Shown piece after piece: positions 9,534 to 53,472 of a stretch of 62,071 nt of DNA. The first letter of the stretch is position 1. Each line of letters begins with the position of its first letter. The translations under genes and the position numbers were made by a program. Origin of the DNA: Nitrospinaceae bacterium. Its GTDB lineage: Bacteria; Nitrospinota; Nitrospinia; Nitrospinales; VA-1. Below the pieces are notes generated by a model. The model was given only the letters and a program-made list of their open reading frames with translations. It was not told where the DNA came from and ran no database searches. Where the stretch lies: the NCBI GenBank assembly GCA_020343535.1, contig CP070799.1, positions 1,867,774-1,929,844 on the forward strand. The letters run 5' to 3'.

Positions 9534-9534
9534 A

Positions 9535-22787: not shown

Positions 22788-26504
<3,717 letters not shown>

Positions 26505-41244: not shown

Positions 41245-42483
41245 TTATTTAGCGGCTGAATCCGTCGGGGGAAGAATGGGGTGCAATTTTAATTGGTCGC
41301 CCCATCGGCGCATGAGCAGGGAAAAGAGCAGGGGGACGGTGATGGTGGAAATGGAGGCGGCCGACAATAACGCCGTAAACAGGTGGACATCAATCAGTTT
41401 CGCGTTGTAGAGCAATTGAACGACGATGATTTCGGTCGTCAGCCGCGCGTTGATTCCGATGCCCACCACCCAGCCTTCGCGAACCGTTAATCTTCCCATG
41501 GGAACCATGAGAAAGGCGCCGATCAACTTGCCGAAAAAGGCGGCGAGAAATAATACGATCGCAAGCGCCGGATCTTCAATGATCCCCTTGAGGTCGGCAT
41601 TGAGCCCCACCCAGAAGAAGAAAACCAGGCCTAAAAATCCATAGCTCCCCGATTGAATGGTATGGGACACTTCCACCCCGATTTTCTTCATCTTGTCCAA
41701 TTGAGGGCGCATGATGACTCCCGCAACGATCGCTCCCACAACCATGCCAAGGCCGATATATTCCGACAGCCCCCCAAGGCCGAACATGACGAGGATGGAA
41801 AGAAGCATCAGGTTCTGCGGACGTTTGGGCATCCAGGCGCTCAATAGATCCAAACCCTTGCTGAATAAAAACCGGGCCAGCAGGATGAACGCGGCGGACC
41901 CGCCTGCGAGTCTCAGAATCCCTGGCCCGTCCTGCGCGCTCATTTGCCCGATCCACACCGAGACGAATGAAACAAGAAACACTTCGATCACATCGTCCAG
42001 CACACCCGCGCCAATAATAAACTGGCCAACCCGGGTATGGATGAGCTTGAACTCGTCTAAAATGGGCACGATCACGGCTTCGGCGGTCGGCATGCAGGTC
42101 AAGCCGATGATAAAGGCGATCAGCCAGCCATAACCCAGGGCGAGCATGACAGCCGTTCCCAGCAAAAACGGCACCACCGTATTCAATACCGTCAGTCGGA
42201 CGATGTCCCCGCTGAACTTGAACATCTCCTGAAATTTAATTTGCAGGCCGATGTAAAAGAGAAGGAACAAGACCCCCAGTTCGGCAAGGAAGGCGAACGG
42301 GGCATTGAATTCAGGAGAGAGGATAACGGCTCCAAGGGGGGTGTAATGCACCGCCATGGCAACCAGCAAGGCGGCGAGAATTCCCGGAATGTGGATACGC
42401 TCCAAAAACCCCGCCAAAAAATAAGTTGAAGCGAATAACAGGGAGAGATAAAGCAATAATTCGCCTGTCTGTGTTCCATTCAT
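41245..42483 (-). CDS. cation:proton antiporter (Na+/H+ exchanger family, CPA type)
   Basis: 412 aa with about 12 TM helices. The N-terminus LLYLSLLFASTYFLAGFLERIHIPGILAALLVAMAV is typical of Kef/NhaP-like exchangers. No KTN domain. Confidence 0.75.
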   Translation of the reverse strand: MNGTQTGELLLYLSLLFASTYFLAGFLERIHIPGILAALLVAMAVHYTPLGAVILSPEFNAPFAFLAELGVLFLLFYIGLQIKFQEMFKFSGDIVRLTVLNTVVPFLLGTAVMLALGYGWLIAFIIGLTCMPTAEAVIVPILDEFKLIHTRVGQFIIGAGVLDDVIEVFLVSFVSVWIGQMSAQDGPGILRLAGGSAAFILLARFLFSKGLDLLSAWMPKRPQNLMLLSILVMFGLGGLSEYIGLGMVVGAIVAGVIMRPQLDKMKKIGVEVSHTIQSGSYGFLGLVFFFWVGLNADLKGIIEDPALAIVLFLAAFFGKLIGAFLMVPMGRLTVREGWVVGIGINARLTTEIIVVQLLYNAKLIDVHLFTALLSAASISTITVPLLFSLLMRRWGDQLKLHPILPPTDSAAK

Positions 42484-42572
42484 AGTGGCTTTCGGCTTCC
42501 CATGCGCGCCGCATTTTCAACGAAAGGCTTCAATCGCCGGGAGAAGCGGGGGCATTCGGGCCGTTCGGCGGG

Positions 42573-43700
42573 CTATAATTTTTCTTTACGACCCTTGCCG
42601 CCGCCGAGCCAGCCCCGGCGCTTGAAAAAAATCATGAATCCCACGGCGATGGCCCCCATCAGCCCGAGGGCGAAGGGGTAGCCGAATCGCCAGCCGAGCT
42701 CCGGCAAGTTGTAGGGCGATGCGGTGACGTCGAAATTCATGCCGTAGATCCCCGCCACCACGCCGATCGGCATGAATACGGTGGCGATGATGGTCAAAAC
42801 CTTCATCACCTCGTTCATCTTGTTGCTGATACTAGACAGGTATATGTTGATGAGGTCGGAACCCCGCTCCCGGTGCGACTCCAGGATTTCGATGATATGG
42901 ACGACATGGTCGTAACAATCCCGAAGATAGACGCGGGTGGAGTCCGAAATCACGGCTTTTTCCCGCGTAAGGGAGTTGACCGCGTCGCGCAGCGGCCAGG
43001 CGATGCGCCTGAGGTGCAGCAGATCGCGCTTTAGCCCGTGGATCTGGTTGATCATGACCTGGTCGGGCTGTCCGATGACCTTTTCTTCGAAGTGATCCAG
43101 CGCTTCGCTGAATTGATCGAGAATGGGGAAATAGCTGTCGACCATCGTATCGATGAGGGCGTAGCTTAGGTAGTCGGCCTGGGACAGGCGGATTCGTCCG
43201 CCCTTTCTTTGCCGGATGCGCTGCACAATCGGATCGAACAGGGAGGAAGGCTGCTCCTGGAAGGACAGCACGACGCCGCCGGCCAGCACCAGGCTGGTCT
43301 GCTCCATCACCAGGTGGTGGTTGCTGATCGAGGGGCACTGGGTGACGATGAATAGGCTTCGATCGTACTCCTCCACCTTCGAGCGCTGGTGGACGTTGAT
43401 GATGTCTTCGAGGACCAGAGGATGCAATGAAAACAATTCGCCCAGCTGGTGGATTATGTCGATGTTGTCGAGGCCCGCGACTCGAATCCACAAGACCGGC
43501 CAACCGCCGAGGAAGCCGCTGATCTGTTCCACGTTGGCGATGGCATGCTCAGTAAGATCGTCCGGTGAGTAGGCCACCATCTGGATGGTGGTGGGAGAGG
43601 CGTCCGGGTGGCTGACCAGGGTGCCGGGAGGCGTGCCTGGGGCGCTTCGCCGCCGCCGCCGGAGTTTGAGCAGGCTCGGCCGAGGGGGCTGTTTCTGCAT
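42573..43700 (-). CDS. corA: magnesium/cobalt transporter CorA
   Basis: C-terminal two TM helices with the GIYGMNF signature, plus the CorA cytoplasmic funnel domain. Confidence 0.9.
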   Translation of the reverse strand: MQKQPPRPSLLKLRRRRRSAPGTPPGTLVSHPDASPTTIQMVAYSPDDLTEHAIANVEQISGFLGGWPVLWIRVAGLDNIDIIHQLGELFSLHPLVLEDIINVHQRSKVEEYDRSLFIVTQCPSISNHHLVMEQTSLVLAGGVVLSFQEQPSSLFDPIVQRIRQRKGGRIRLSQADYLSYALIDTMVDSYFPILDQFSEALDHFEEKVIGQPDQVMINQIHGLKRDLLHLRRIAWPLRDAVNSLTREKAVISDSTRVYLRDCYDHVVHIIEILESHRERGSDLINIYLSSISNKMNEVMKVLTIIATVFMPIGVVAGIYGMNFDVTASPYNLPELGWRFGYPFALGLMGAIAVGFMIFFKRRGWLGGGKGRKEKL

Positions 43701-43967
43701 GAGTTTCTCCTGAGTGGGGAGGGCCGTCGAGTAGGCTGGGGCGCATACCGCGTTTCGGAAAACCCTTCTTTCGTCAGGGTGTTCAGGTTAAAATCGGCCC
43801 GGTGGCCGGGTTTTTCACAACGGTTCCGGCTCCCGCACACACCCGTGTTGTTCTGGAGGGAGAAACCATCGCCTCCCCCGTTTCGCCTTCCGATATTATA
43901 AGTTCAAAGGGAAAAAAGGAAAGGGCTGTTTTTGCTTGCGCATGTCACGAGTTCCATAGAGTTTTAA

Positions 43968-45125
43968 ATGAGCCTGCTCCTGTTCGTGGCGCTGGGCGGC
44001 TACCAGCTGGCCGCCCGCATCGCGCAGTCGGCGGTGGTGGGGGTCATACTCGCCGGGCTGATTATCGGCCCAAGCGCCCTCGGATGGGTGACCTACACCG
44101 AATTTGTTAAGAGTATAGCCCATTTGGGCGCTGTAATCCTGCTGTTCGTTACCGGCCTCGAATTCAAGCTCGAGTCTATCAGCAAATTGCGCTACGCGGT
44201 GGTCGGGTTGTTCGGGGTGGCGCTGCCATGGGCGGGCGGCTACCTGCTCGCCATCCTGTTCGGGTTCGACGCCAACCGGTCGATGATCATCGGCGTGGCG
44301 CTCACCGCGACCAGCGTCGCCATCACCGCCGACACTTTGCGAGAGATGGGAAAGCTGCAGACCCAGGCGGCCCAGGCCATCATCGGTGCGGCGGTGATCG
44401 ATGATGTGCTGGCGCTTCTGGCGCTGGGAGTTGCCAACCAGATGGCCACGGCGTCCTTTTCGGCGTGGGAAGTCCTTGGCGTGCTGGCCAAAGCGGTGAT
44501 CTTCCTTGCGGCGGGGGCGTGGGTGGGGAAGCGGTTTCTGACGCCGGCGATTCAGCGGATCGACGAATCTCGCATCGCTCGCGATTTTCCCGAATACAAC
44601 TTCATCTTCGCGATGATGGTCGCTTTTCTATACGCCATGGTCGCGGAGATCATGGAGCTCTCCGCCATTATCGGCAGCTTCGTCGCCGGGGTGTCGCTGG
44701 AGGGAGTGAGCCTGCGTACCAGCAAACACTTTAAGGAGGGCGCGGAATATCTGCGCATCATCTTCGGCGCTATATTTTTCATCTCTCTCGGTATCATCGC
44801 CGACATCAAGGCCTTCACGCCCGAGGTGCTCTGGTTCTTGTTGGCACTGGTCCTGGTGGCCGTTCTCACCAAAGCGGTGGGATGCGGGCTGACCGCGCGC
44901 CTCCTCGGAATGAGCCGGCAGGATGCCCTCGTGGTCGGTTTCGGCATGGTGCCGCGCGGCGAAGTGGCGATGATCGTCGCTCTCCTTGCCCTCAACGAAA
45001 AGGTCATCGACCAGCCGAGCTATGTGGCGCTGGTCATGATGAGCCTCCTGACCACGCTCGCCGTTCCCTTGCTGTTCAGGAACTGGTTGTATAGAAAGGA
45101 TCCGTCCGCCGGCTTGGCGGAATAG
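43968..45125 (+). CDS. cation:proton antiporter (CPA2-like)
   Basis: 385 aa polytopic membrane protein with LLFVTGLEFKL and GAAVIDDVLALLAL motifs typical of Kef-type exchangers. No regulatory domain. Confidence 0.75.
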   Translation: MSLLLFVALGGYQLAARIAQSAVVGVILAGLIIGPSALGWVTYTEFVKSIAHLGAVILLFVTGLEFKLESISKLRYAVVGLFGVALPWAGGYLLAILFGFDANRSMIIGVALTATSVAITADTLREMGKLQTQAAQAIIGAAVIDDVLALLALGVANQMATASFSAWEVLGVLAKAVIFLAAGAWVGKRFLTPAIQRIDESRIARDFPEYNFIFAMMVAFLYAMVAEIMELSAIIGSFVAGVSLEGVSLRTSKHFKEGAEYLRIIFGAIFFISLGIIADIKAFTPEVLWFLLALVLVAVLTKAVGCGLTARLLGMSRQDALVVGFGMVPRGEVAMIVALLALNEKVIDQPSYVALVMMSLLTTLAVPLLFRNWLYRKDPSAGLAE

Positions 45126-45139: not shown

Positions 45140-46447
45140 TTACAGAAAACCCGATAACAGGGTGGCGATACCGAGGAACGAAAAGAAACCCGCCACGTCG
45201 GTGACGGTGGTGAGGATGATCGACGACGCGGTGGCGGGGTCTTGCCCGATGCGGGTGAGCAGGATGGGCACCGAAGCGCCGGCCAGCCCGGCGGTCACCA
45301 TGGAAAGAATCATCGAGACGCCGATCACCACGGTGATTCCGGGCGACCGGCTCCATAGGAACACCGCCAGGCAGGTGGTGGCGGCCACCGCGAGGCCGTT
45401 GGCCAGCCCCACCATCACCTCTTTGCGAATCACCTGCTTCCATTGCAGAATGGTGATTTCCCTGAGCGCCAGACCACGCATGGTGACGGCCAGCGCCTGC
45501 GCCCCCGCATTGCCCGATTGACCCGCCACCACCGGGAGAAGAACCGCCAGGGCGGTGATCTGGGCGATGACGTCCTCGAACAGTCCCACCCCTGCCGCCG
45601 CCAGAAAGGCTGTCAGCAGATTGACTTGCAGCCAGGGCAGGCGCTTGCGCACCGAAAAGCCGGGTTTGGACAGCACGCGCTCATCCTTGCTGACGCCAAA
45701 CATGGCCTGGATGTCGGCGGTGGCTTCTTCCTCCACCGCCTTGACCAGGGCCTCGTAGTGTAACTGCCCGATAAGGCGTTTATCGTTGTCGACCACCGGC
45801 AGGTGCGACAGCTTGTAAGTTTCCAGCAGTTCCACCACATCCTCTCGCGGAGTAAGGGGAGTGACCGTCACCTGGATGGGGTGCCCGAGCGCATGGAGTA
45901 CCGTGTCCGGCCCGTCGAGCACCAGGTCCTGCATCTCCAGTTTGGCGACCAGGCGGTTTTCGGAATCCACCAGGAACAGGGTGCGCGTGGGGCGGTGTTC
46001 CAGCCGGCGTATCCGCCGCAGGCATTGCCGCACCGTCATGGTGTCGCGAAAGGGATGGACGCGCGGGTCCATCAACCGGCCGGCGGTATTATCGGGATAG
46101 GTGAGGAGGGTGTCTATGGTTTTCCGGAGGGCATCGCCGAGCCGGGAGAGCCAGCGGGACCGGTCCGCCTCCTCCTGTTGCGCAAGAAGCGACGCCAAGG
46201 AATTGGGCGTCGTCTCACGCAGCACCCGCAGGGCAAGATCTTCTGAAAGCAACTCGAAGACGGCGGCCGCCCGGTCGAGGGTCATCCGCTCAAGCACCGG
46301 TGCGACGACCGCTGCCGGATGCAAGGACAAGAGCGCCGCGGCCTCTTCCGAATCGTACAGTTCCAGTTTCTGCGCGGCCTCGCCAGGGTGGTCCGACAAG
46401 AACCTGCGGCTGAGGGCGGAGATGGCGGCCTGGGCGTCATCGGTCAT
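45140..46447 (-). CDS. mgtE: magnesium transporter MgtE
   Basis: MgtE N-domain, a CBS pair (LPVVDNDKRLIGQL) and a five-TM C-terminal domain with the GNAGAQ and ILTTVTDVAGF motifs. Confidence 0.9.
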   Translation of the reverse strand: MTDDAQAAISALSRRFLSDHPGEAAQKLELYDSEEAAALLSLHPAAVVAPVLERMTLDRAAAVFELLSEDLALRVLRETTPNSLASLLAQQEEADRSRWLSRLGDALRKTIDTLLTYPDNTAGRLMDPRVHPFRDTMTVRQCLRRIRRLEHRPTRTLFLVDSENRLVAKLEMQDLVLDGPDTVLHALGHPIQVTVTPLTPREDVVELLETYKLSHLPVVDNDKRLIGQLHYEALVKAVEEEATADIQAMFGVSKDERVLSKPGFSVRKRLPWLQVNLLTAFLAAAGVGLFEDVIAQITALAVLLPVVAGQSGNAGAQALAVTMRGLALREITILQWKQVIRKEVMVGLANGLAVAATTCLAVFLWSRSPGITVVIGVSMILSMVTAGLAGASVPILLTRIGQDPATASSIILTTVTDVAGFFSFLGIATLLSGFL

Positions 46448-46450
46448 GGT

Positions 46451-47296
46451 TCACTCGCTTTCGCCGGGTTTGCCGTGCCGGCTAAAAAATCCCGCAACAG
46501 ACCTGAGCCCACCGTGAACCGCTCGCATGCAAGCTCGCAGCGGGTTCGTCGATGGGTTGAGGTTCCTGGCGGGAAGGCGGTGCTCGCCAAAGGCTCTTAA
46601 TCCGCGCTCCAGGTTTTTTCTCGTGAGCAGGCCGACCAACTTGTTTTCGTTGCCGATCACGGGATAGGCGTCGAAACGGTCCCAATCGCCGCTGGCGAAC
46701 GCGTCGGCGAGAAGCGCCTGGTCGGACAGCGGCACGATATCGTGAACGGTTATTTTTCGAATGGCATGTTTGGCCCGGGATCGCGCCAGCAGGGAAAGCT
46801 GCATCAGCCCTCCGAACTGGCCGCCCTTGTCGACCACGCAAAGCGAGTGATCGATTTCTCCTTTTGTTGCGCGCAACATCTGACGGACTTGCCCCACCGA
46901 ATACTCCATCGGGATGGACGGGCTGTCCAGGTTCATCCAGGCGCCGACGGCATTGCCCGGGTAACTCATTTGCTTCTTGAGGGAGCCTCTTTTGTTTTCA
47001 GGCAGGGCCTTCAGCGCGGAACGCCGGAAAGCGGCGGGCAGCAGCCTGAGCAGGCCGACACCTGTCAGAGTGGTGGATTCCCGCAAATAAATCGTCGACT
47101 TTTCCAGGGAAAGCTTGAGGATGCACTGAATCGCATACTGCGGCGGCAGCTTTTCGATGATTCGAACGCCGGTTTTGTGCGGGATGACTTCCAGGAACGA
47201 CGCGGTGTCCTCCGGTGGCAGGGCGTGCAGTTCCCTGGCGGCTCTATCGGTGTGCCCCTCCACATAGGTGAGCGCAAAGGGCAGATGTTCATTCAC
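46451..47296 (-). CDS. soluble MgtE-N-like + CBS-pair protein (no transmembrane domain)
   Basis: The N-terminal helical region resembles the MgtE N-domain and is followed by two CBS-like units (LCVVDKGGQFGGLM; YPVIGNENKLVGLLT). It stops 3 nt before the mgtE start. Confidence 0.65.
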   Translation of the reverse strand: MNEHLPFALTYVEGHTDRAARELHALPPEDTASFLEVIPHKTGVRIIEKLPPQYAIQCILKLSLEKSTIYLRESTTLTGVGLLRLLPAAFRRSALKALPENKRGSLKKQMSYPGNAVGAWMNLDSPSIPMEYSVGQVRQMLRATKGEIDHSLCVVDKGGQFGGLMQLSLLARSRAKHAIRKITVHDIVPLSDQALLADAFASGDWDRFDAYPVIGNENKLVGLLTRKNLERGLRAFGEHRLPARNLNPSTNPLRACMRAVHGGLRSVAGFFSRHGKPGESE

Positions 47297-47461: not shown

Positions 47462-48232
47462 CTATTGGCAGGAGAAAAATAGCGCCAGCGCCCGTTCGAA
47501 ACTGCGATTCAGTTCAGCAAGACGGGCGGGGGCCACCGTGAGGCGCTCGGCGTCGAACCACGGCGCGCTCAGGTAAAGCCCGCGGTTCATTTCGATCTGG
47601 ACTCCGGGGCGCGGGTGGTTGCCGTAGATCCGAGTGATGTGGCCGCCGGCGAAGGGGCTGTCGATGGTGATCTCGTGGTTTTCCAGGGAAAATGCCTCGC
47701 CCAGGCAACGCGCCAGCCGGCGCACGGTTTCGGGCGGGCAGCTTTGGCCGTGATTGCCGCCCAGGCAGAAGCTTGGCCGGCTTGCCCCAGGGTCGGGAGA
47801 AAAATCCGGACCCACCGCCTCCATCGAGTGACAGTCGAGGAACAGTTCGATGTTCGAATGGCCCCGCAGCGTTTCCAGGAGCGCCCGGTGGTACGGAGCG
47901 TGATATTTTTCGATCAGGTCGTCTGCCGCCGGCCGGTCGAGATCCTGGCCGGGAAAATAAATTGAACGGCCATGGCAGGTGCGGGTTTTAACAACCCCGT
48001 CGGGGTTTTGCGGCGGCCGGTCGTCGGTGGCGCGGTTGAGATCAACATAAACCCGGGCGATCTCCGTGTCCATGCAGGCAGCCACCTTATCGCCCAGGCC
48101 GTAGATTTCGCGGGTGAAGGCGTCGCTGTCGGCGAATAAATCGCCAGGGGCGAGGGCTATACGGCTTGAAATCTCCCGGGGTGCGAGTGTGCCTCCATGG
48201 GGGATGGAAAGAAGCACGGGATAGGTAGGCAT
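47462..48232 (-). CDS. N-formylglutamate amidohydrolase (FGase) family protein
   Basis: LLSIPHGGTLAP...VDLNR...LDCHSM...GGHIT are FGase-family zinc-site motifs. Confidence 0.7.
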   Translation of the reverse strand: MPTYPVLLSIPHGGTLAPREISSRIALAPGDLFADSDAFTREIYGLGDKVAACMDTEIARVYVDLNRATDDRPPQNPDGVVKTRTCHGRSIYFPGQDLDRPAADDLIEKYHAPYHRALLETLRGHSNIELFLDCHSMEAVGPDFSPDPGASRPSFCLGGNHGQSCPPETVRRLARCLGEAFSLENHEITIDSPFAGGHITRIYGNHPRPGVQIEMNRGLYLSAPWFDAERLTVAPARLAELNRSFERALALFFSCQ

Positions 48233-48235
48233 GGA

Positions 48236-49864
48236 TCAGGGTCCTTGGGCCATTCCGTCGCGGCGCACTTCGGCAACGCCCTGGAACTGGTTACAGATCT
48301 CGGACTTGAGCACCGCGTGCACCGCGCCTAGATAAAAGGAGTAGGGTTCGCGGATATCGACCTTGTAGCCCACTGTTTTCAGATATTCCACCACCGAAGG
48401 ATCGAACCGGTCGGCTTCCAGGCTCAGGGTACCGCCGATCGAGCAGTGGAGCCGGGGCCTTTCCATGGCCTCGCTGATGGGCATGTCGCCATCGACAATG
48501 TGGGAGATAAACTGACTCATGGTCGAAAAAATCCGTTCGCTGCCCGGCGTGCCGGCAACCATCCAGAGTTTATCGCGGTAAAAGGCGATAATCGGCGCCA
48601 CCGAACTCCAGGGCACGGCGTTGGGCCGCAGGAAGTAAGGGTGTGCGGGGTCTTGGGTGTCGAGCGAGCTCATGTAATTGTTGTAGATGAAGCCAAGGTC
48701 CGCCGCCGCCACCTTCGAGCCGTACACCAGTTCGATGGACTGGGTGATGCCGATGGCGTTGCCCTGGTCGTCCATGACCGAAAGGTGCGTGGTGTCGTTC
48801 TGGTCGGGATACAGGTCCGCCAGGGGTAGGCTAGGGTCGATGTGGTCGCGGATCGATGCCGAGAGTTTTCGCGCGAATTCCCGGCTCAGGATTTTTTTGT
48901 CGTCGGGCAGCTGCGGGTAGATGTTGGGATCGAAAGGACGTTCCTTGTGGTTAAGTAGGGCTTTGCGGAAGGTTTCTGCGACGAAATGGCGCGAAACCGG
49001 GCTTTCGCTCTTCAAAAATTTGGACGGCAGGTTCTTGAGCATTTGCAGGACCAGGAGCAAGGTCCGTCCCGCTGCCGGTGGTGGGCAGGTGAAGATCTTC
49101 ACCTTGCGATAGCGCCGACGGATGGGCTTACGGATTACCGGCCACGGGATGAATGCCAGGTCCTCGGATCTCAAAAAGCCGTCGTGCCGTCGCATGTCGT
49201 CGTCGATCGCCTGGGCGACTTCACCGGTGTAAAACGATTTGATGCCATGACGGGCGATATGCGTCAGAAGGTCCGCCAGATCGCTCTGGCGGAACACGTC
49301 GCCTGCGGCGTGTGGTTTTTTTCCTTCCTTCAAAAAATATTTTGCGGCTGACTTGGAGAACGTACCAAGAAATTTGGCGAGCTCGCGCTTCTGCAGGTTT
49401 TCCTGCAGCGGGGTGATGGCGTATCCTTCGCGGGCGATGTGAATGGCGGGTTCAAGAATCGCTGGCCATTCCAATGTGCCGTAGTGAAAGTGCAGGTAGC
49501 CCAGAGTGGCTGGAGTGCTGGGCACCGTGGTGGCGCGGTACCCGGTGAACAGGCTGTGTTTTTCCACCCGGTCATGATGCGCCAGGGAAGGAACGCGGCT
49601 GGACCCGTCGATAGCGACGGTTTTTCCCTGGTGATACATGATCGCAAGGCTCTGGCCCCCCAGGCCGCTGGCCTGCGGTTCGCAGACGGCAAGCGCGAAG
49701 GCGGCGGCGCAGGCGGCGTCGATAGCGTTTCCGCCCTGGCGCAGCATCTCCACCCCGGCCTGGGTCGCCAGGGGAAACGCCGTGGACACCATACCCTTCT
49801 CTGACACGGCGCATTTGCCATCGGCAGTGGGGCGGAAATTCCCCTCGATTTTCTCCAGTCTCAT
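48236..49864 (-). CDS. ggt: gamma-glutamyltransferase family protein, no signal peptide
   Basis: GGNAIDAA, GLGG and the autoprocessing/nucleophile motif DTTHLSVMD. The N-terminus MRLEKIEGNFRPTADGK has no hydrophobic signal. Confidence 0.8.
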   Translation of the reverse strand: MRLEKIEGNFRPTADGKCAVSEKGMVSTAFPLATQAGVEMLRQGGNAIDAACAAAFALAVCEPQASGLGGQSLAIMYHQGKTVAIDGSSRVPSLAHHDRVEKHSLFTGYRATTVPSTPATLGYLHFHYGTLEWPAILEPAIHIAREGYAITPLQENLQKRELAKFLGTFSKSAAKYFLKEGKKPHAAGDVFRQSDLADLLTHIARHGIKSFYTGEVAQAIDDDMRRHDGFLRSEDLAFIPWPVIRKPIRRRYRKVKIFTCPPPAAGRTLLLVLQMLKNLPSKFLKSESPVSRHFVAETFRKALLNHKERPFDPNIYPQLPDDKKILSREFARKLSASIRDHIDPSLPLADLYPDQNDTTHLSVMDDQGNAIGITQSIELVYGSKVAAADLGFIYNNYMSSLDTQDPAHPYFLRPNAVPWSSVAPIIAFYRDKLWMVAGTPGSERIFSTMSQFISHIVDGDMPISEAMERPRLHCSIGGTLSLEADRFDPSVVEYLKTVGYKVDIREPYSFYLGAVHAVLKSEICNQFQGVAEVRRDGMAQGP

Positions 49865-52053
49865 GCGGCGAAATTTTTGGAGGATTTATAGATCAGATAG
49901 GCCAGAAGCACGCTCCGGTCAATCAGGCTGTCGCGGATGATGTACTCGGCCTTGCTCCCGATGCCCCCGGTCACCGGACCGAAACCGTCGAGGGCGGGGA
50001 CCTGCGGGCCGCAATAGGCTAGCAGGGAGGCGATGCCTTCGTCCGAGGGTTTAACGCGGACTTCAACGGTTTTCGCGATTTTTTCCACTTTTTGAAAAAA
50101 CTCTTGCGAGAGTTCGGTTTTTAAAAAGGGTTTCCTTTGCAGGCCCCGTGAAACGAGGGTTTTGATTAGGCTACGCGTCGGCGATTCGAAGAGGTGTTGA
50201 ACCTGCTCATCAAGTTTTGTCCCTAGTGACGTGGAACGGTAGCGGATCAAAAAACTTAGCAGGGCGTAATGCGCCGGCAGGCCGGGTGCTCCCCCGGTTT
50301 TTATCCCATTGAGAACGATGTGTGTGCCCTCTGGGTCGGAGTTGAATTTTTTGAGGGCCGTGATTTTCTGGTCGATATAGAGAATCGGGTCCTCCTTCTC
50401 GGAGATCGATTTGAGCAGGTTGTGTCCCGGGCGCTGGTTGATCTCGATGTCGTACTGCAGCGAGCCGAACGAAGAGGTGAGAATTTCTCCAGCCAGGCCC
50501 GCGCCGCTCAGGCCCACCACATAACGGGAGCGGGCGGAAACTTCCTCCAGCACCGTCCGAGAGGACCGTCCGCCACGCGAGTAGTCTGAAATGAGGAGAA
50601 TGCCGCATTTGATTTTTCTTAATGAGCGCGTGTGGCGCAGTGCTTTCAAGGCACCTAACAGGATGGCGAGACCTCCCTTGCCGCGGGCCACGCCACTGCC
50701 GTAAATGCGCCCGCGCTCCTCGGTAAATTGCGTAAAATCCTGCGAATCTATGGAGTTGTCGAGGTTGCCCACGAGGAGGATGTCGTTGTTTTCCTCCATG
50801 TGGTTGGCGAAATATAGGATATTCCCCAATTCGGCGCGCGAATGAACCTGGCGGTGAAACCCCAGCGCAGAGAGCTGGTTCGAGGCCCAGCGGCCCAGGG
50901 AATTGACGCCCTCGATGTTGTTGTAATTGGAGTTGATGTCAACCATTTTGGCCAGATAGTCCTCCATGGTGACCAGGTTGCCGCGCAGGTAGCTCCTCAA
51001 CCTCACCCGCAACGGGTCCTTTTTGGCGGCGCCTTCCGTCTCCCCCACCTTAACCTGTTCGAATTGTTCGCCGCCGAAATAGCGCTCAACCGCCACATCG
51101 AGCATGCGGTTGATCAGGCTTTCATAGGTGTAGCCGGCGACTCCTGCCGCGTGCACGTAGGTCCCCGTCAGGCCGAGGCTTGCCATCGAGTTGAGCTCGA
51201 GGATATAAAGCCGGCCCTCCTTGTCCATGCGAAAATCCACGCGGCAGAAATCGTAAATCCCGAGAACGGAGAAGGTCTCGCGGGTCAGTCGCCTGAGTTC
51301 TCGGGCGATGTCCTCGTCGATACGGGCGGGGCAGATTTTTTCCTTGGGCTTCTTGAGTTTGTCATCCAGGCTTTGAATGGCAAAGGGGTCGCCGCCCAGG
51401 TCGATCTCGACGATGGGGAGAGTCTCGGGATCGTGATTGCCCAGAAGCCCTACGGCGAACTCGCGTCCCGGAATGAATTTCTCTACCAGGACAGGTTGTT
51501 TGAACTGGTCCACTAAATCGCTGATCGCTGTTTTCAGCGACGCTAGGTCGTGAATCACCTGGATGCCCAGGGAGACGGCCTCCATTTTCGGCTTGGTGAT
51601 GACGGGAAAGGGCATGTCGTCTGGGATCTGGTCCGCCTTGTAGAAAACCCAGTAGGGGGCCGTCGGCAGGCCCGCCGCCTGAACCATGACCTTGGTGGTC
51701 ACCTTGTCCAGGGCGATGCCATGCCCCGCCGGGCTGGAGCCAACGTATGGCACCCCGAGCATTTCCAGTAGGGAGGGAATGTGGGTGTAGCGGCTGATAC
51801 CCTGGATGCCGTAGGCCATGTTGAAGACCATGCCGGGTTTCTCACCCTGGACCACGCGAGGCATGAAATTCTGCAACTGTTCGATGACGTTGATATTGCC
51901 GTCGATAACGCGGACGTTGTGCCCACCCTGTTCGAGAGCCGCTGCAACGCGCTCTACGATTTTGGGGTTGTAGGTTTCCAGGTTCTGCATGCCAAAGACG
52001 TTGATGACGCCTCCAACATCCTTGCGCTTGTTATAAATAACGGCGACTTTCAT
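49861..52053 (-). CDS. fusion protein: D-Ala-D-Ala-ligase-like ATP-grasp domain + M20 peptidase-like domain with substituted metal ligands
   Basis: N-terminal half: MKVAVIYNKR...PVITKP...LVEKFIPGREF...RVDFRMDKEGRLYILELNS (ATP-grasp). C-terminal half aligns by eye with carboxypeptidase G2 (ILLVGNLDNS, YGSGVARGKGGLAILLGALKAL, LLISDYSRGG, GIGSKAEYI). The H/D/E/E/H ligand positions read N/G/Y-S/?/G. Confidence 0.75.
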   Translation of the reverse strand: MKVAVIYNKRKDVGGVINVFGMQNLETYNPKIVERVAAALEQGGHNVRVIDGNINVIEQLQNFMPRVVQGEKPGMVFNMAYGIQGISRYTHIPSLLEMLGVPYVGSSPAGHGIALDKVTTKVMVQAAGLPTAPYWVFYKADQIPDDMPFPVITKPKMEAVSLGIQVIHDLASLKTAISDLVDQFKQPVLVEKFIPGREFAVGLLGNHDPETLPIVEIDLGGDPFAIQSLDDKLKKPKEKICPARIDEDIARELRRLTRETFSVLGIYDFCRVDFRMDKEGRLYILELNSMASLGLTGTYVHAAGVAGYTYESLINRMLDVAVERYFGGEQFEQVKVGETEGAAKKDPLRVRLRSYLRGNLVTMEDYLAKMVDINSNYNNIEGVNSLGRWASNQLSALGFHRQVHSRAELGNILYFANHMEENNDILLVGNLDNSIDSQDFTQFTEERGRIYGSGVARGKGGLAILLGALKALRHTRSLRKIKCGILLISDYSRGGRSSRTVLEEVSARSRYVVGLSGAGLAGEILTSSFGSLQYDIEINQRPGHNLLKSISEKEDPILYIDQKITALKKFNSDPEGTHIVLNGIKTGGAPGLPAHYALLSFLIRYRSTSLGTKLDEQVQHLFESPTRSLIKTLVSRGLQRKPFLKTELSQEFFQKVEKIAKTVEVRVKPSDEGIASLLAYCGPQVPALDGFGPVTGGIGSKAEYIIRDSLIDRSVLLAYLIYKSSKNFAA

Positions 52054-52239
52054 AAGGGATACCCGTTAAAAGGTTTAACATCCCCCAAGACTAGCAATCT
52101 TTGGGCGGCATACCCAATGGGCGGGTGTTTGCTGGACCTAGCTTTGCGAACCATTATATCACAGACAACATCGGCCAACGTTTGGAGCCAGGCGCGCTTG
52201 CACGGTTCAGGCCCCCTCTAGGGTGGAATCGGCAGCCCC

Positions 52240-52959: not shown

Positions 52960-53073
52960 GAACTTCTCTCGCTTGGGGAGTGCTTCCGATTTTCGTGGAT
53001 ACTATTCAGCTTAGCATTTGGAAGGGGGGGAATCCAGCGCTTTACGGAGGGGCGGTGCCCAGGCCTCATGGCT

Positions 53074-53472
53074 TCAGCCCCGGGTTTTCTCCACGTATTT
53101 CATTTGCAGCTCATAGATGAGCTGTTCGAGAAGTTTGGCTTCGTCGGCGCTCAGGTTTCCCTGGGTCTTGGCCTTCAGCATAATGAGCATATCGATGGTT
53201 TGCTGGACGGCGGGAAGGTTGGTTTCCTTCTGCCCGGTCACCGGGTCGGCCAGGTCCCCCAAATGATAAAACGCCGAGGAAGTGAGGGACATGATGAAGG
53301 TGGAAAAGTCGATTTGAAATTTTTGCTCGCCGGGGGCTTGTTTGGGTGCGGGCTCTCCAGCCGGGGGCGCTTCCGGCTCAGGTTCGCGCGAGGCGTCTTC
53401 CTCGGAAAGTTGGGAAGAGCGTTTGTCCTTGATGACGAAACTGTCGCCTTTGATTTCTTCCTTTTTACTCAT
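53074..53472 (-). CDS. DUF1844 domain protein
   Basis: IDFSTFIMSLTSSAFYHLGDLADPVTGQKETNLPAVQQTIDMLIMLKAKTQGNL is the DUF1844 signature. ATG 53472 (MSKKEE) is preferred over the long track ORF. Confidence 0.65.
   Translation of the reverse strand: MSKKEEIKGDSFVIKDKRSSQLSEEDASREPEPEAPPAGEPAPKQAPGEQKFQIDFSTFIMSLTSSAFYHLGDLADPVTGQKETNLPAVQQTIDMLIMLKAKTQGNLSADEAKLLEQLIYELQMKYVEKTRG

What the first reader, a model, noticed from the sequence alone, without database searches (positions are those of the whole stretch)
47462..52053. Tightly coupled three-gene operon: ATP-grasp ligase fused to a ligand-less M20 domain, a signal-less GGT and an FGase-family hydrolase
The three minus-strand genes are joined by an ATGA overlap (49861-49864) and a 3-nt gap (48233-48235).
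- **Gene 1:** it fuses a D-Ala-D-Ala-ligase-like ATP-grasp domain (KVAVIYN..., EKFIPGREF, RVDFRMDKEGRLYILELNS) to a domain that aligns by eye with carboxypeptidase G2/M20. The five metal-ligand or catalytic positions appear substituted: SHMDTV to GNLDNS, ADDKGG to ARGKGG, TDEEKG to SDYSRG, and the C-terminal His to Gly or Ser. It would be a pseudo-peptidase, perhaps acting as a substrate-binding or oligomerisation module.
- **Gene 2:** a GGT with the nucleophile motif DTTH but no signal peptide, so it is predicted cytoplasmic.
- **Gene 3:** an N-formylglutamate-amidohydrolase-family zinc hydrolase.

A ligase plus two amide or gamma-glutamyl hydrolases suggests synthesis and trimming, or recycling, of a glutamyl-containing small peptide or modified metabolite. 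A fused 5-oxoprolinase lies elsewhere in the window (22788-26504). I know of no characterised pathway with this composition.
Basis: partly seen in the sequence, partly recalled or inferred. Interest (0 to 1): 0.65.

Follow-up and report, generated by a model that had tools for sequence, protein, structure and literature searches.

The report
Glutamate-linked ligase–hydrolase operon, uncharacterised
A tightly coupled, transcribed three-gene operon (an ATP-using ligase fused to a dead peptidase domain, an unusual cytoplasmic GGT-like hydrolase and an FGase-type hydrolase) is conserved in about 430 species including all three guilds of marine nitrifiers; no characterised pathway matches it, and its gene partners suggest it makes and breaks a glutamate- or beta-glutamate-based small amide tied to salt and magnesium balance.

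Summary
There are three minus-strand genes (49861-52053, 48236-49864, 47462-48232) joined by an ATGA overlap and a 3-nt gap, and RNA-library contigs bridge both junctions.

- **Gene 1:** an intact Ddl-like ATP-grasp fused to a CPG2-fold M20 domain. All five metal ligands and the catalytic Glu are replaced. No family member has a complete site.
- **Gene 2:** a signal-less GGT-family protein. It keeps the Thr nucleophile, but its gamma-glutamyl pocket is remodelled in a conserved way.
- **Gene 3:** an FGase-family hydrolase, not a HutG orthologue.

The trio keeps its order in Nitrospinota, marine Nitrosomonas, Nitrosopumilaceae archaea, Binatia, Gemmatimonadota and others. It sits repeatedly beside Mg2+ transporters (MgtE, CorA, CNNM), Na+/H+ exchangers and MscS.

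In anoxic-sediment bacteria the same ligase family, fused or free, is operonic with a glutamate-type 2,3-aminomutase (the beta-glutamate maker), an active CPG2-like M20, an AbgT transporter and a GGT-like protein.

Best reading (inferred, about 0.4): ATP-driven synthesis and hydrolytic turnover of a glutamate- or beta-glutamate-derived amide used in osmotic and ionic homeostasis. I found no characterised pathway that matches. The distant hydantoinase/oxoprolinase-family gene is unrelated.

The parts
49861..52053 (-). Gene 1 (G1): 730-aa fusion of a Ddl-like ATP-grasp ligase and a CPG2-like pseudo-M20 domain
   Evidence: ORF. Pfam and NCBIfam. More than 1600 homologues of fixed ~730-aa length. 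AF2 model with pLDDT 85.6. Foldseek matches both halves.
51070..52053 (-). ATP-grasp (Ddl-like) half of G1, about aa 1-328. ATP/Mg residues are intact: K154, E191, K232, R271, D273, E286, N288.
   Evidence: Alignment to P. aeruginosa DdlA (8evx), 6e-32. Residues invariant across 86 sequences. Foldseek TM about 0.8 to Ddl structures.
49864..51018 (-). Pseudo-M20 (CPG2-fold, including the dimerisation lobe) half of G1, about aa 346-730. All five metal ligands and the catalytic Glu are replaced. A low-confidence linker (aa 330-344) precedes it.
   Evidence: CPG2 alignment. Family-wide ligand table. Foldseek to 1cg2/6xj5 with TM 0.74-0.75 over about 390 columns. pLDDT profile.
49861..49864 (-). 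ATGA stop/start overlap between G1 and the GGT-like gene (translational coupling)
   Evidence: Sequence. About 46 of 62 orthologous loci show the same 4-nt overlap. An RNA-library contig, 49542-49985, bridges it.
48236..49864 (-). Gene 2: cytoplasmic GGT-family Ntn amidohydrolase of a distinct subfamily (GGT*). Signature motifs: DGSSRxP, ITQSIE, YNNYM, GSPGSxRI.
   Evidence: Pfam 5.7e-111. TIGR00066 347.6 bits, below the 357.85 cut-off. Alignment to E. coli GGT. Motif census in 65 proteins. No hydrophobic N-terminus in 59 of 59.
48791..48793 (-). Codon of Thr358, the predicted autoprocessing and catalytic nucleophile (NDTTHLS, aligned with E. coli T391)
   Evidence: Alignment. Conserved as (D/E)TTH in almost all orthologues. 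Codon ACC read.
48233..48235 (-). 3-nt spacer between the GGT* stop and the FGase start
   Evidence: Sequence. Gaps of -1 to +3 nt in most orthologous loci. An RNA-library contig, 47921-48282, bridges it.
47462..48232 (-). Gene 3: FGase-family (PF05013) zinc-type amidohydrolase; not a HutG orthologue
   Evidence: Pfam 2e-47. TIGR02017 94 bits against a 279 cut-off. Motifs PHGG, DLNR, CHSM and QIEMNR shared with 2q7s.
52153..52161 (-). Candidate extended -10 promoter element TGATATAAT, about 100 nt upstream of the G1 start (inference only)
   Evidence: Read directly. It was not called by the two-hexamer scan. RNA-library contigs also extend further upstream, so read-through from the gene at 52240-52959 cannot be excluded.
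45140..47296 (-). Immediately downstream, same strand: an MgtE_N+CBS protein (46451-47296) and MgtE (45140-46447). These are recurrent neighbours, not shown to be part of the operon.
   Evidence: Pfam. The same pair lies next to the trio in Nitrospinota, Binatia, Nitrosomonas and Gemmatimonadota loci.
41245..45125 (.). Further cation-transport context: Na+/H+ exchanger (43968-45125, +), CorA (42573-43700, -), Na+/H+ exchanger (41245-42483, -)
   Evidence: Pfam labels for the identical contig L001. CorA confirmed.

Best explanation
The three genes form one transcribed operon that encodes a small-molecule amide cycle built on a glutamate-type amino acid.

- **G1** is an active Ddl-like ATP-grasp ligase. 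It would form an acyl-phosphate on a carboxylate and couple it to an amine. Its C-terminal CPG2-like domain cannot hydrolyse anything, because its metal site is gone. That domain most probably survives as a dimerisation and glutamate-moiety (dicarboxylate) binding module for the substrate or product.
- **The GGT-like protein** is a cytoplasmic Thr-nucleophile amidohydrolase. Its donor pocket is rebuilt, so it probably accepts something other than a standard gamma-glutamyl group, and a beta-glutamyl group would fit the pattern.
- **The FGase-like protein** is a metal-dependent hydrolase of N-acyl-glutamate-type bonds.

Together, one enzyme spends ATP to make the amide and two enzymes take it apart from opposite ends.

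Two lines of context point to the product. The same ligase family is operonic with glutamate 2,3-aminomutase, an active CPG2-like M20 and glutamate-type transporters elsewhere. The trio itself sits next to Mg2+, Na+/H+ and mechanosensitive channel genes in five phylum-level lineages of saline habitats. The product is therefore most likely a glutamate- or beta-glutamate-derived dipeptide or amide, serving as an adjustable organic solute or counter-ion pool during osmotic or ionic stress.

Shown: gene structure, domain state, conservation, neighbourhoods, and detection in RNA-seq libraries. Inferred: the substrate class, the role of the pseudo-M20 domain, the division of labour between the hydrolases, and the physiological role.
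For: - **Operon:** ATGA overlap and 3-nt gap. The same coupling is found in most of 62 orthologous loci. RNA-library contigs at >=99% identity bridge both junctions.
- **Ligase competent:** ATP/Mg residues are aligned with Ddl and invariant in 86 sequences. Fold TM about 0.8 to Ddl.
- **M20 dead:** all ligands are replaced in the window. No complete site exists in 79 relatives. The fold is still full-length CPG2, TM 0.75.
- **GGT\*:** nucleophile and Ser-Ser pair kept, but R114, N411, Q430, D433 and G484 are replaced by a signature conserved in 60 of 65 proteins. All are cytoplasmic.
- **FGase:** motifs kept.
- **Glutamate / beta-glutamate link:**
  - In 47 metagenome loci around an aminomutase that scores best as glutamate 2,3-aminomutase (574 bits against 430 for the lysine type; D293->K), nearly every contig with flanking sequence has an active CPG2-like M20 plus this ATP-grasp, fused or free.
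  - AbgT, SDF and GGT-like genes recur in those loci.
  - The eam-linked ligases keep 76-77 of 78 (fused) and 63-67 of 78 (free) invariant residues, including all polar ones.
  - A C26 gamma-glutamyl-hydrolase-like GATase replaces GGT in Latescibacterota.
- **Ion and osmotic link:**
  - MgtE, CorA, CNNM, Na/H-CBS and MscS lie next to the trio in Nitrospinota, Nitrosomonas, Binatia, Gemmatimonadota and Nitrosopumilaceae. In some archaeal loci they sit inside the trio.
  - Habitats are estuary, sediment and seawater.
- **Background:**
  - Beta-glutamate is an osmolyte, measured at 730 mM in N. maritimus (PMC8269262; PMC1224877).
  - eam is treated as an osmoprotectant gene (PMC9337991).
  - The osmolytes of most AOA are unknown (PMC11428151).
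Against: - No biochemical or genetic datum exists for any member. Every functional statement rests on homology and gene neighbourhood.
- No aminomutase was found in the window or within 7-10 kb of G1 in any trio-type locus. The beta-glutamate link is therefore transferred from paralogous or orthologous contexts in other (anaerobic) bacteria.
- N. ureiphilus has G1 without GGT* or FGase nearby, so the three genes are not obligatorily linked.
- An operon with one ligase and two hydrolases could equally be catabolic.
- Mg2+ transporter adjacency may partly reflect transfer of a whole island rather than independent selection, and it may mean Mg2+ rather than osmotic biology.
- Metabolomes of N. 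gracilis and N. adriaticus did not report such a peptide, although the methods were not aimed at one (PMC11428151).
- RNA libraries can contain DNA, and contigs carry no strand information.
Confidence: 0.4

Rival explanations
1. Catabolic or salvage route: the module takes apart exogenous or recycled glutamyl or beta-glutamyl peptides as a nitrogen and carbon source. The hydrolases do the work. The ligase re-activates or re-conjugates an intermediate.
For: Two of the three enzymes are hydrolases. In the eam-type loci the partners include a secreted GGT-like protein, an AbgT-family importer-type transporter and an SDF symporter. The aminomutase reaction is reversible (established knowledge).
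Against: In the trio, all proteins are cytoplasmic and no organic-solute transporter is conserved next to it. The main hosts are chemolithoautotrophic nitrifiers. An ATP-consuming ligase has no obvious role in simple peptide breakdown.
Confidence: 0.15
2. Oligo- or poly-glutamate chemistry (RimK- or PGA-like). G1 adds glutamates iteratively to a small primer or a protein C-terminus, which the pseudo-CPG2 domain holds. This creates a polyanion that buffers Mg2+. GGT* trims from the amino end and FGase from the carboxyl end.
For: - Mg2+ transporters of three families lie beside or inside the trio.
- There are two hydrolases with opposite end-specificities by family.
- Foldseek also retrieves an M20 poly(aspartate) hydrolase (7ljh) among the matches.
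- From memory: GGT and a carboxypeptidase-fold zinc enzyme (PghP) are the known poly-gamma-glutamate degraders.
Against: The ATP-grasp is Ddl-type, not RimK-type, by every HMM. No carrier or target protein gene is conserved. The GGT* pocket is not the canonical gamma-glutamyl one. This partly overlaps the best explanation.
Confidence: 0.12
3. Gamma-glutamylation of an amine (Puu-, theanine- or glutamine-like): G1 couples the glutamate gamma-carboxyl to a polyamine, ammonia or another amine, and GGT* removes it again. This would control free amine pools that compete with Mg2+.
For: The ligase plus gamma-glutamyl-hydrolase logic recurs with three non-homologous hydrolase types: GGT*, canonical GGT, and C26 GATase. 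There is Mg2+ context. From memory: polyamines and Mg2+ are interchangeable counter-ions on nucleic acids.
Against: No oxidoreductase or aminotransferase of a Puu-type pathway is conserved. GGT* lacks the residues that bind the alpha-amino acid end of a gamma-glutamyl donor. The eam and CPG2-like M20 partners are not explained.
Confidence: 0.1
4. Glutathione-like thiol peptide synthesis and a cytoplasmic gamma-glutamyl cycle: G1 acts like the Ddl-like synthetase half of GshF, and GGT* degrades the product.
For: The GshF ATP-grasp half is Ddl-like (from memory). A GGT family member is present. A Pyr_redox_2 flavoprotein follows G1 in N. ureiphilus. A hydantoinase/oxoprolinase-family gene is present in the window.
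Against: - No gshA is linked, and gshA is reported only in Nitrososphaerales among AOA (PMC7554672), whereas G1 is in Nitrosopumilaceae.
- The GGT* donor pocket is non-canonical.
- The hydantoinase gene is not conserved with the trio.
- FGase, eam and the Mg2+ context are unexplained.
Confidence: 0.07
5. G1 is simply a peptidoglycan D-Ala-D-Ala ligase paralogue, as many records annotate it.
For: The best HMM and PDB matches are Ddl. Database names say 'D-alanine-D-alanine ligase'.
Against: - Scores are far below every Ddl cut-off, 154 against 243 bits.
- The omega-loop Tyr216 position is Leu/Met.
- It is obligately fused to a pseudo-M20.
- It is widespread in Nitrosopumilaceae archaea, which have no murein (established knowledge).
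- It is never in a mur/ddl context.
Confidence: 0.01

Closest known systems
D-alanine-D-alanine ligase and related L-amino-acid ligases (ATP-grasp, Dala_Dala_lig_C)
   Same: Same fold (TM about 0.8) and the same ATP/Mg2+ and acyl-phosphate residues. It presumably uses the same two-step carboxylate-activation and amine-attack mechanism.
   Different: It is below all Ddl family cut-offs. Tyr216 is Leu. It has its own invariant motifs (G-x-Q-G-x-S-R-Y-T-H-x-P and E-L-N-S-M-A-S-L). It is fused to a pseudo-M20. It is present in murein-less archaea. Its genomic partners are glutamate-centred, not cell-wall genes.
Carboxypeptidase G2 (M20 glutamate carboxypeptidase, PDB 1cg2)
   Same: The whole two-lobe fold, including the dimerisation domain, is kept (TM 0.75). 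It is the best sequence match in the PDB. CPG2 recognises a C-terminal glutamate (established knowledge).
   Different: H112, D141, E176, E200, H385 and the general base E175 are all replaced in the window. No relative has a full set. It therefore cannot be a co-catalytic zinc hydrolase. In the eam-type operons a separate, ligand-complete paralogue is present.
Bacterial gamma-glutamyltranspeptidase (E. coli GGT; the signal-less Bacillus YwrD type; CapD)
   Same: Pfam family member over its full length. The autoprocessing Thr and the Ser462/Ser463 pair are conserved.
   Different: It is cytoplasmic. R114, N411, Q430, D433 and G484 are replaced by a conserved subfamily signature. It is just under the TIGR00066 cut-off. 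It is always coupled to G1.
N-formylglutamate amidohydrolase HutG (FGase family)
   Same: Pfam FGase over the whole length, with conserved family motifs shared with 2q7s. It probably hydrolyses an N-acyl-glutamate-type amide.
   Different: 94 bits against a 279-bit HutG cut-off. No hut genes are nearby. It is replaced by an active M20 in the eam-type operons.
NAGGN osmoprotectant operon (asnO-ngg-peptidase; PA3459-PA3461)
   Same: Closest in logic. It is a three-gene, salt-linked operon in which a fusion enzyme forms a peptide bond between glutamine or glutamate-type residues without ribosomes, accompanied by an N-terminal-nucleophile enzyme and a metallopeptidase (PMC8070244).
   Different: No homology of the parts was detected here. 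No GNAT, asparagine-synthase or M42 family appears among the Pfam/NCBIfam hits of the three proteins at E <= 0.1. The product is unknown. The neighbours are cation transporters, not a MarR regulator.
[quoted passage not shown]
   Same: A 2,3-aminomutase is followed by an enzyme that derivatises the beta-amino acid into a better compatible solute (PMC1224877, PMC9337991). The eam-M20-ATP-grasp operons found here have that layout.
   Different: The derivatising enzyme would be an ATP-grasp ligase, not an acetyltransferase or glutamine synthetase. The window's own operon carries no aminomutase.
E. coli abgA/abgB/abgT (p-aminobenzoyl-glutamate uptake and M20 hydrolysis) and LysX/LysK amino-group-carrier systems (both from memory)
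   Same: AbgT transporter plus an M20 hydrolase acting on an acyl-glutamate; and an ATP-grasp that attaches and an M20 that releases a glutamate-linked intermediate. Both pairings recur in the eam-type loci.
   Different: No folate context and no LysW-like carrier gene were seen. The ATP-grasp is Ddl-type, not RimK/LysX-type.

Membership tests
ATP-grasp superfamily (Dala_Dala_lig_C) | Pfam model above gathering score and an ATP-grasp fold | tested here: met
   106 bits against 24. Foldseek TM about 0.8 to many Ddl structures.
ATP-grasp superfamily (Dala_Dala_lig_C) | ATP- and Mg2+-binding residues (Ddl K144, E180, K215, R255, D257, E270, N272 equivalents) | tested here: met
   K154, E191, K232, R271, D273, E286 and N288 are aligned and invariant in 86 sequences.
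D-alanine-D-alanine ligase proper (EC 6.3.2.4) | Score above the NCBIfam Ddl cut-offs | tested here: not met
   Best score 154 bits against a 243 cut-off (NF002378); 130 against 246 (TIGR01205).
D-alanine-D-alanine ligase proper (EC 6.3.2.4) | Omega-loop Tyr216 and the C-terminal N-T-x-P-G-M-T...S-L substrate motif | tested here: not met
   The Tyr position is Leu/Met (DKLKK). The motif reads N-S-M-A-S-L-G.
D-alanine-D-alanine ligase proper (EC 6.3.2.4) | Host makes murein; cell-wall gene context | tested here: not met
   It is widespread in Nitrosopumilaceae archaea. There are no mur or ftsQ neighbours.
Peptidase M20 (CPG2-like) | Pfam model above gathering score and a two-lobe M20 fold | tested here: met
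   31.9 bits against 24.6. TM 0.74-0.75 to 1cg2/6xj5 over about 390 columns.
Peptidase M20 (CPG2-like) | Co-catalytic metal ligands His112, Asp141, Glu176, Glu200, His385 and the general base Glu175 | tested here: not met
   In the window these are N, R, S, S, I and Y. No relative has all of them. This is a pseudo-enzyme domain.
Gamma-glutamyltranspeptidase (EC 2.3.2.2 / 3.4.19.13) | Pfam G_glu_transpept full-length match and the Thr nucleophile | tested here: met
   372 bits. NDTTHLS aligned with E. coli T391.
Gamma-glutamyltranspeptidase (EC 2.3.2.2 / 3.4.19.13) | Equivalog score (TIGR00066) | tested here: not met
   347.6 bits against a 357.85 cut-off.
Gamma-glutamyltranspeptidase (EC 2.3.2.2 / 3.4.19.13) | Gamma-glutamyl-binding residues (E. 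coli R114, N411, Q430, D433; oxyanion G483-G484) | tested here: not met
   Replaced by S (with an Arg two residues later), E, Y, S and G-S. This is conserved in 60 of 65 linked proteins, while 5 extra neighbouring GGTs are canonical.
Gamma-glutamyltranspeptidase (EC 2.3.2.2 / 3.4.19.13) | Secretion signal (periplasmic or extracellular enzyme) | tested here: not met
   There is no upstream start. Maximum 12-aa hydropathy is <=1.30 in all 59 subfamily members, against 2.0-3.5 in the canonical ones.
HutG N-formylglutamate deformylase | Pfam FGase match with the family motifs | tested here: met
   162.6 bits. PHGG, DLNR, CHSM and QIEMNR align with 2q7s.
HutG N-formylglutamate deformylase | Equivalog score and hut operon context | tested here: not met
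   94.4 bits against a 278.75 cut-off. No hutH, hutU or hutI in the window neighbourhood or in related loci.
NAGGN osmoprotectant system | Homologues of AsnO, Ngg (GNAT plus ligase) and the M42 peptidase | tested here: not met
   None of these families appears among the Pfam/NCBIfam hits of the three proteins at E <= 0.1. It is an analogy of design only (PMC8070244).
Compatible-solute or osmoadaptation system (functional class) | Salt-responsive expression and accumulation of the product | not testable with these tools
   Only indirect evidence is available: saline habitats and cation-transporter and MscS neighbours.

The most novel reading that the evidence does not exclude
The G1 family is a previously unrecognised beta-glutamate ligase. 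In marine nitrifiers (AOA, Nitrospina, marine Nitrosomonas) it would convert part of the very large beta-glutamate or glutamate anion pool into a so-far undetected beta-glutamyl amide or dipeptide, a new class of compatible solute. GGT* would be the first beta-glutamyl-specific Ntn amidohydrolase. The pseudo-CPG2 domain would be a dedicated beta-glutamate or glutamate binding module. The whole cycle would be coordinated with Mg2+ and Na+ fluxes. This would identify the missing osmolyte biochemistry of organisms that run marine nitrification.
Probability: 0.2. Interest if true: 0.85.

Novelty: new variant of a known kind. Interest (0 to 1): 0.68.

Why it matters
The module occurs in about 430 species-level genomes. 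Its hosts include the three guilds that carry out nitrification in the sea: ammonia-oxidising archaea, ammonia-oxidising Nitrosomonas and nitrite-oxidising Nitrospinota. It is detected in seawater and sediment RNA-seq libraries.

How most of these organisms balance osmotic pressure is unknown for AOA (PMC11428151), and so is how they handle their very large beta-glutamate pool (730 mM in N. maritimus, PMC8269262).

A conserved ATP-dependent ligase, tied by gene context to the beta-glutamate-forming aminomutase on one side and to Mg2+, Na+ and mechanosensitive transporters on the other, gives a concrete and cheap-to-test candidate for that missing chemistry.

Independently of the physiology, the module offers three things of interest to enzymologists:
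- A clear case of a metallopeptidase domain recycled as a non-catalytic module of a ligase.
- A GGT subfamily with a rebuilt donor pocket.
- A correction to widespread mis-annotation ('D-alanine-D-alanine ligase', 'M20 metallo-hydrolase').

Tried and rejected
1. **Peptidoglycan Ddl:** rejected. Scores are below the cut-offs, Tyr216 is absent, and hosts include archaea.
2. **Link to the 'fused 5-oxoprolinase':** rejected. It is a hydantoinase A/B fusion 21 kb away on the other strand and never accompanies the trio elsewhere.
3. **Histidine utilisation (HutG):** rejected on score and context.
4. **Riboswitch or other known RNA upstream of G1:** Rfam at gathering threshold finds only two tRNAs in the window.
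5. **Sigma-70 promoter and terminator scan:** nothing convincing between the genes or in front of G1. An extended -10 element seen by eye is reported only as a candidate.
6. **Literature:** ten full-text searches found no paper on this gene combination or on a Ddl-like gene in Nitrosopumilus. The Iyer et al. 2009 amidoligase survey, which might mention related neighbourhoods, is not held. A phrase search for 'glutamate 2,3-aminomutase' failed because of the comma.
7. **Glutathione-like thiol idea:** kept only as a weak rival (PMC7554672, PMC7278568).
8. **Aminomutase in the window or in trio loci:** none found.
9. **Nitrosopumilus sp. K4 context look-up:** returned nothing.
10. **Steps not spent:** I did not use the third homologue search or the representative-library search, because ranking by similarity would not have shown whether nitrifiers carry eam. 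The structure model could be compared only by fold, since coordinates are not readable here. Pocket-level claims therefore rest on sequence alignment.

Full report

Yes. The ORF listing returns three minus-strand ORFs at exactly the stated coordinates: 49861..52053 (730 aa), 48236..49864 (542 aa) and 47462..48232 (256 aa). The sequence reads gccgcATGAgac at 49861-49864, so the stop of gene 1 overlaps the start of gene 2. It reads cccTGAtccATGcct further on, a 3-nt spacer at 48233-48235.

Pfam assigns the following:
- Gene 1: Dala_Dala_lig_C (2e-30, residues 124-318) plus Peptidase_M20 (1.6e-7, 31.9 bits against a gathering score of 24.6, residues 444-721).
- Gene 2: G_glu_transpept (5.7e-111).
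- Gene 3: FGase (2e-47).

**2. Gene 1 (G1)**

The N-terminal half aligns with true D-Ala-D-Ala ligases; the best PDB hit is P. aeruginosa DdlA at 6e-32. The ATP and Mg2+ residues are in place and invariant in an 86-sequence bacterial and archaeal alignment: K154, E191, K232, R271, D273, E286, N288. The ligase half should therefore be active.

It is not a Ddl proper, for three reasons:
- The best NCBIfam score is 154 bits against a 243-bit cut-off.
- The omega-loop Tyr216 position is Leu or Met.
- The C-terminal substrate motif is N-S-M-A-S-L-G rather than N-T-x-P-G-M-T.

The C-terminal half aligns with carboxypeptidase G2 over almost its whole length. The identity of the CPG2 ligands is established knowledge that I recall from memory. 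At those positions the window has:

| CPG2 position | Window residue |
|---|---|
| H112 | N |
| D141 | R |
| E175 (general base) | Y |
| E176 | S |
| E200 | S |
| H385 | I |

Across 79 relatives, two groups appear:
- Group A is the window's own clade (Nitrospinota, Nitrosomonas, Burkholderiales MAGs). It has lost every ligand.
- Group B (archaea, Gemmatimonadota, Binatia, KSB1, Latescibacterota, Magnetomorum) keeps His112 and has Glu at the Asp141 position, but lacks E176, E200 (mostly Lys) and H385.

No member has a complete site. The domain is nevertheless a complete M20 fold. An AlphaFold2 model (pLDDT 85.6, pTM 0.72, with a disordered linker at 330-344) superposes on CPG2 with TM 0.74-0.75 over about 390 columns, so the dimerisation lobe is included. 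Its N-terminal half superposes on Ddl structures with TM about 0.8.

**3. Gene 2**

The ORF starts at the first possible start codon after a stop. Residue 21 aligns with residue 22 of the mature E. coli chain. No hydrophobic stretch exists in the first 45 residues of any of the 59 linked orthologues. By contrast, the canonical GGTs that sometimes lie beside G1, and the GGT-like proteins of the aminomutase loci, have obvious signal peptides. The protein is therefore cytoplasmic as a subfamily trait.

The Thr nucleophile (NDTTHLS) and the Ser-Ser pair are conserved. The residues that E. coli GGT uses to hold the alpha-amino and alpha-carboxylate groups of the gamma-glutamyl moiety are not; their roles are established knowledge that I recall from memory. 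The changes are:

| E. coli motif | Window motif | Change |
|---|---|---|
| DFREMAP | DGSSRVP | R114 displaced |
| VTYTLN | ITQSIE | N411 to Glu |
| NNQMDDF | NNYMSSL | Q430 to Tyr; D433 lost |
| GSPGGSRI | GTPGSERI | G484 to Ser |

This signature is shared by 60 of 65 GGT-family proteins in the related loci. The five extra upstream copies are canonical. The protein scores 347.6 bits against the 357.85-bit TIGR00066 cut-off. It is best described as a GGT-family Ntn amidohydrolase with a rebuilt donor pocket.

One inference follows. A beta-glutamyl acyl group has the same carbon length as a gamma-glutamyl group, but its amine is shifted by one carbon. That is the kind of change such a pocket rebuild would accommodate.

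**4. Gene 3**

It is a full-length FGase-family protein with the family motifs shared with the one solved relative, 2q7s. At 94 bits it is far below the 279-bit HutG cut-off, and no hut genes are nearby.

**5. Conservation and distribution**

G1 has more than 1600 close homologues of fixed length. A scan of one genome per GTDB species found relatives in 430 species. The 80 best loci come from:
- Nitrospinota
- marine Nitrosomonas (N. aestuarii, N. marina, Nm51)
- Burkholderiales MAGs
- Binatia
- Gemmatimonadota
- KSB1
- Latescibacterota
- Calditrichota
- Nitrosopumilaceae archaea

. A second search shows G1 is common in Nitrosopumilaceae, including cultured N. ureiphilus and strain K4.

Of 71 loci with enough downstream sequence, 62 carry the trio-type GGT on the same strand. 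In 60 of those it is directly adjacent, and most have the same 4-nt overlap. FGase follows in 55 of 59. Flanking genes differ completely between lineages, so the trio is a self-contained module.

**6. Expression**

The stretch occurs in estuary, sediment and marine metagenomes and in RNA-seq libraries from seawater and sediment. Contigs from those RNA libraries are >=99% identical and cover all three genes. Single contigs bridge the G1/GGT junction (49542-49985) and the GGT/FGase junction (47921-48282).

There are caveats. The contigs are unstranded, depth is low, and DNA carry-over cannot be excluded. Some contigs also run upstream of the G1 start. I noted an extended -10 element (TGATATAAT, 52161-52153) by eye, but read-through from the upstream gene is possible.

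**7. First functional clue: cation transporters**

In the window the trio is followed by an MgtE_N-CBS protein, MgtE, a Na+/H+ exchanger, CorA and another Na+/H+ exchanger. The same kinds of genes recur elsewhere:

| Lineage (locus) | Arrangement |
|---|---|
| Nitrosomonas (L036) | trio + MgtE |
| Binatia (L046) | trio + MscS + MgtE_N + MgtE + CNNM |
| Gemmatimonadota (L072) | trio + MgtE + MscS |
| Gemmatimonadota (L059) | trio + CorA |
| Nitrospina watsonii (L003) | MscS directly upstream |
| Nitrosopumilaceae (L077) | Na/H-CBS, G1, CNNM-CorC, CorA, GGT, FGase |
| Nitrosopumilaceae (L068) | G1, CorA, K+-channel-like gene, GGT, FGase |
| Nitrosopumilaceae (L078) | trio + CorA |

. In N. ureiphilus, G1 lacks GGT and FGase. 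It still sits with Na/H-CBS, an SDF Na+:dicarboxylate symporter, an ion channel, Usp and CNNM-CBS.

Three unrelated Mg2+ transporter families beside one enzyme module, in five phylum-level lineages, is very unlikely to be chance. Transfer of whole islands does reduce the independence of these observations.

**8. Second functional clue: glutamate 2,3-aminomutase**

In four genome loci (L058, L060, L062, L066) G1 has no GGT or FGase. It is instead preceded by a KamA-family radical-SAM enzyme and a stand-alone M20 with a complete ligand set.

The aminomutase scores best as glutamate 2,3-aminomutase (TIGR04368, 574 bits). That is below the 650-bit equivalog cut-off but well above the lysine (430) and arginine (365) types. 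Aligned to lysine 2,3-aminomutase 2a5h, it has Lys at Asp293 and Thr at Asp330. That Asp293 is replaced by Lys in the glutamate enzyme is published knowledge I recall from memory.

A metagenome scan with this protein returned 47 loci. Nearly every contig with flanking sequence has the active M20 directly downstream and a G1-type ATP-grasp. The ATP-grasp takes one of two forms:
- The fusion protein, in the order eam-M20-G1.
- A free 344-aa ATP-grasp, in the order ATP-grasp-eam-M20.

Several loci add an AbgT-family transporter and a secreted GGT-like protein (for example L105 and L133). Others add an SDF symporter.

The eam-linked fusion proteins keep 76-77 of the 78 residues that are invariant in the ATP-grasp half of the window's family. 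The free versions keep 63-67, including all charged and polar ones. They should therefore perform the same chemistry. In Latescibacterota, G1 is followed by a class-I GATase/C26 protein, a family that includes gamma-glutamyl hydrolases.

Every partner of this ligase family recognises glutamate or a glutamyl amide. One of them makes beta-glutamate.

**9. Synthesis**

Shown:
- A transcribed, translationally coupled operon.
- An intact Ddl-type ligase fused to a non-catalytic CPG2-fold domain.
- A cytoplasmic GGT-family hydrolase with an altered pocket.
- An FGase-family hydrolase.
- Wide conservation.
- Cation-transporter neighbours.
- Operonic linkage of the ligase family to the beta-glutamate-forming aminomutase, an active M20 and glutamate-type transporters.

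Inferred:
- G1 couples a glutamate-type amino acid (alpha or beta) to a second partner.
- The pseudo-M20 domain supplies dimerisation and dicarboxylate binding.
- FGase in the trio and the active M20 in the eam operons are alternative hydrolases for the acyl-Glu side. GGT* attacks from the (beta/gamma-)glutamyl side.
- The pool of this compound is adjusted together with Mg2+, Na+ and K+ fluxes during osmotic or ionic stress.

Background makes this plausible:
- Beta-glutamate is a classical anionic osmolyte, and beta-glutamine is its zwitterionic amide (PMC1224877).
- It is the most abundant metabolite of N. maritimus, at 730 mM (PMC8269262).
- eam is counted among osmoprotectant genes controlled by Na+ riboswitches (PMC9337991).
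- The osmolytes of most AOA are unknown (PMC11428151, PMC7554672).

I put about 0.4 on this general reading and about 0.2 on the specific beta-glutamyl version.

**10. Rivals**

- **Catabolic or salvage role** for exogenous (beta-)glutamyl peptides. This fits the secreted GGT-like protein and the importers in the eam loci. It fits poorly with cytoplasmic enzymes in autotrophic nitrifiers and with an ATP-consuming ligase.
- **Oligo- or poly-glutamate synthesis** as a Mg2+ buffer. This fits the Mg2+ context and the two end-specific hydrolases, but the ligase is not RimK-like.
- **Gamma-glutamylation of amines.** This fits the recurrent ligase plus gamma-glutamyl-hydrolase pairing, but not the altered GGT* pocket or the aminomutase.
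- **A glutathione-like cycle.** It is weak because gshA is absent from the contexts and, according to PMC7554672, from Nitrosopumilales.
- **A plain Ddl.** This is excluded.

**11. Comparison with known systems**

By parts, the nearest relatives are Ddl, CPG2, bacterial GGT and HutG. In each case a defining feature of the specific enzyme was tested and not met; see the membership table.

By design, the closest known system is the NAGGN osmoprotectant operon. It is a three-gene salt-induced operon with a fusion enzyme that makes a Gln-Gln peptide bond, an N-terminal-nucleophile amidotransferase and a metallopeptidase (PMC8070244). No homology to its components was detected.

The ablA/ablB pathway is the precedent for an aminomutase plus a derivatising enzyme. 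I found no paper describing this trio or the eam-M20-ATP-grasp operon. Public records call G1 'D-alanine-D-alanine ligase' or 'M20/M25/M40 family metallo-hydrolase'. Both names are misleading.

**12. Limits**

- Genes in fetched loci were called with my own simple ORF finder and clustered by BLAST, and intergenic distances are derived from tblastn ends.
- Only the 80 best of 430 genome loci were seen.
- Whether trio-bearing nitrifiers encode an aminomutase elsewhere could not be checked.
- Residue roles in CPG2, GGT, Ddl and the aminomutases are taken from established literature recalled from memory.
- The AF2 model could be compared only at fold level.

Noticed in passing
window 1-11709: A low-GC block (37-46% against about 60% elsewhere) ends with a tyrosine integrase (10505-11566) next to tRNA-Glu (11635-11709); tRNA-Gln lies at 12244-12317. 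It looks like an integrated genomic island. It carries a 784-aa multihaem cytochrome c/TPR/HEAT protein (635-2989), an Lnb_N-domain protein (2989-4089) and two ~445-aa proteins with no Pfam match (4567-5898, 5926-7266).
   Followed up: partly
window 22788-26504 (+): A 1238-aa fusion of Hydantoinase_A and Hydantoinase_B, the family that covers oxoprolinase, hydantoinase and acetophenone carboxylase. The family alone does not show 5-oxoprolinase specificity, and the gene is not conserved with the trio.
   Followed up: partly
window 46451-47296 (-) and 45140-46447 (-): A 281-aa protein with only the MgtE N-domain and CBS region (no membrane domain) directly precedes a full MgtE. The same ~280 + ~435 aa pair recurs next to the trio in Nitrospinota and Binatia. 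It may be a split or regulatory MgtE paralogue.
   Followed up: partly
L087-L133 (metagenome loci), e.g. L105:891-7767, L133:6001-13288: A conserved operon in sediment and hypersaline metagenomes: a Ddl-like ATP-grasp (free or fused to pseudo-M20), a glutamate-type 2,3-aminomutase and an active CPG2-like M20. AbgT transporter, a secreted GGT-like protein, a second long KamA-like radical-SAM protein (598-644 aa) and an SDF symporter are optional additions. I found no description of it in the searchable literature.
   Followed up: partly
L077:9224-12135 and L068:4299-6743: In Nitrosopumilaceae, transporter genes sit between G1 and the GGT-like gene. These are a CNNM/CorC protein and a CorA with a ~250-residue N-terminal membrane extension (548 aa), or CorA plus a small K+-channel-like protein.
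   Followed up: partly
L011:5049-6800, L014:5093-6844, L056:5101-6852, L073:1658-3301: Some loci carry a second, canonical, signal-peptide-bearing GGT directly upstream of G1. In L014 and L056 it is the only GGT, and FGase is absent.
   Followed up: partly
L086:12195-13538 (N. ureiphilus CP026995): G1 stands alone here and is followed by a Pyr_redox_2 flavoprotein. An SDF symporter, Usp, an ion channel and CNNM-CBS lie upstream.
   Followed up: no
window 52240-53691 (-) and 53594-55520 (+): Upstream of the operon lie a CxxCxxCC (YkgJ-type) protein and a DUF1844 protein on the same strand, then a divergent TatT/DctP pair without visible membrane components of a TRAP transporter. The same block is present only in the near-identical contigs. 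RNA-library contigs run from the intergenic region into G1.
   Followed up: no
L035:12795-14261, L026:111-1568, L032 (c30): A circularly-permuted-type ATP-grasp (~488 aa; my reading of the sequence, not scanned against Pfam) recurs a few genes from the trio in some Nitrospinaceae and Nitrosomonas loci.
   Followed up: no
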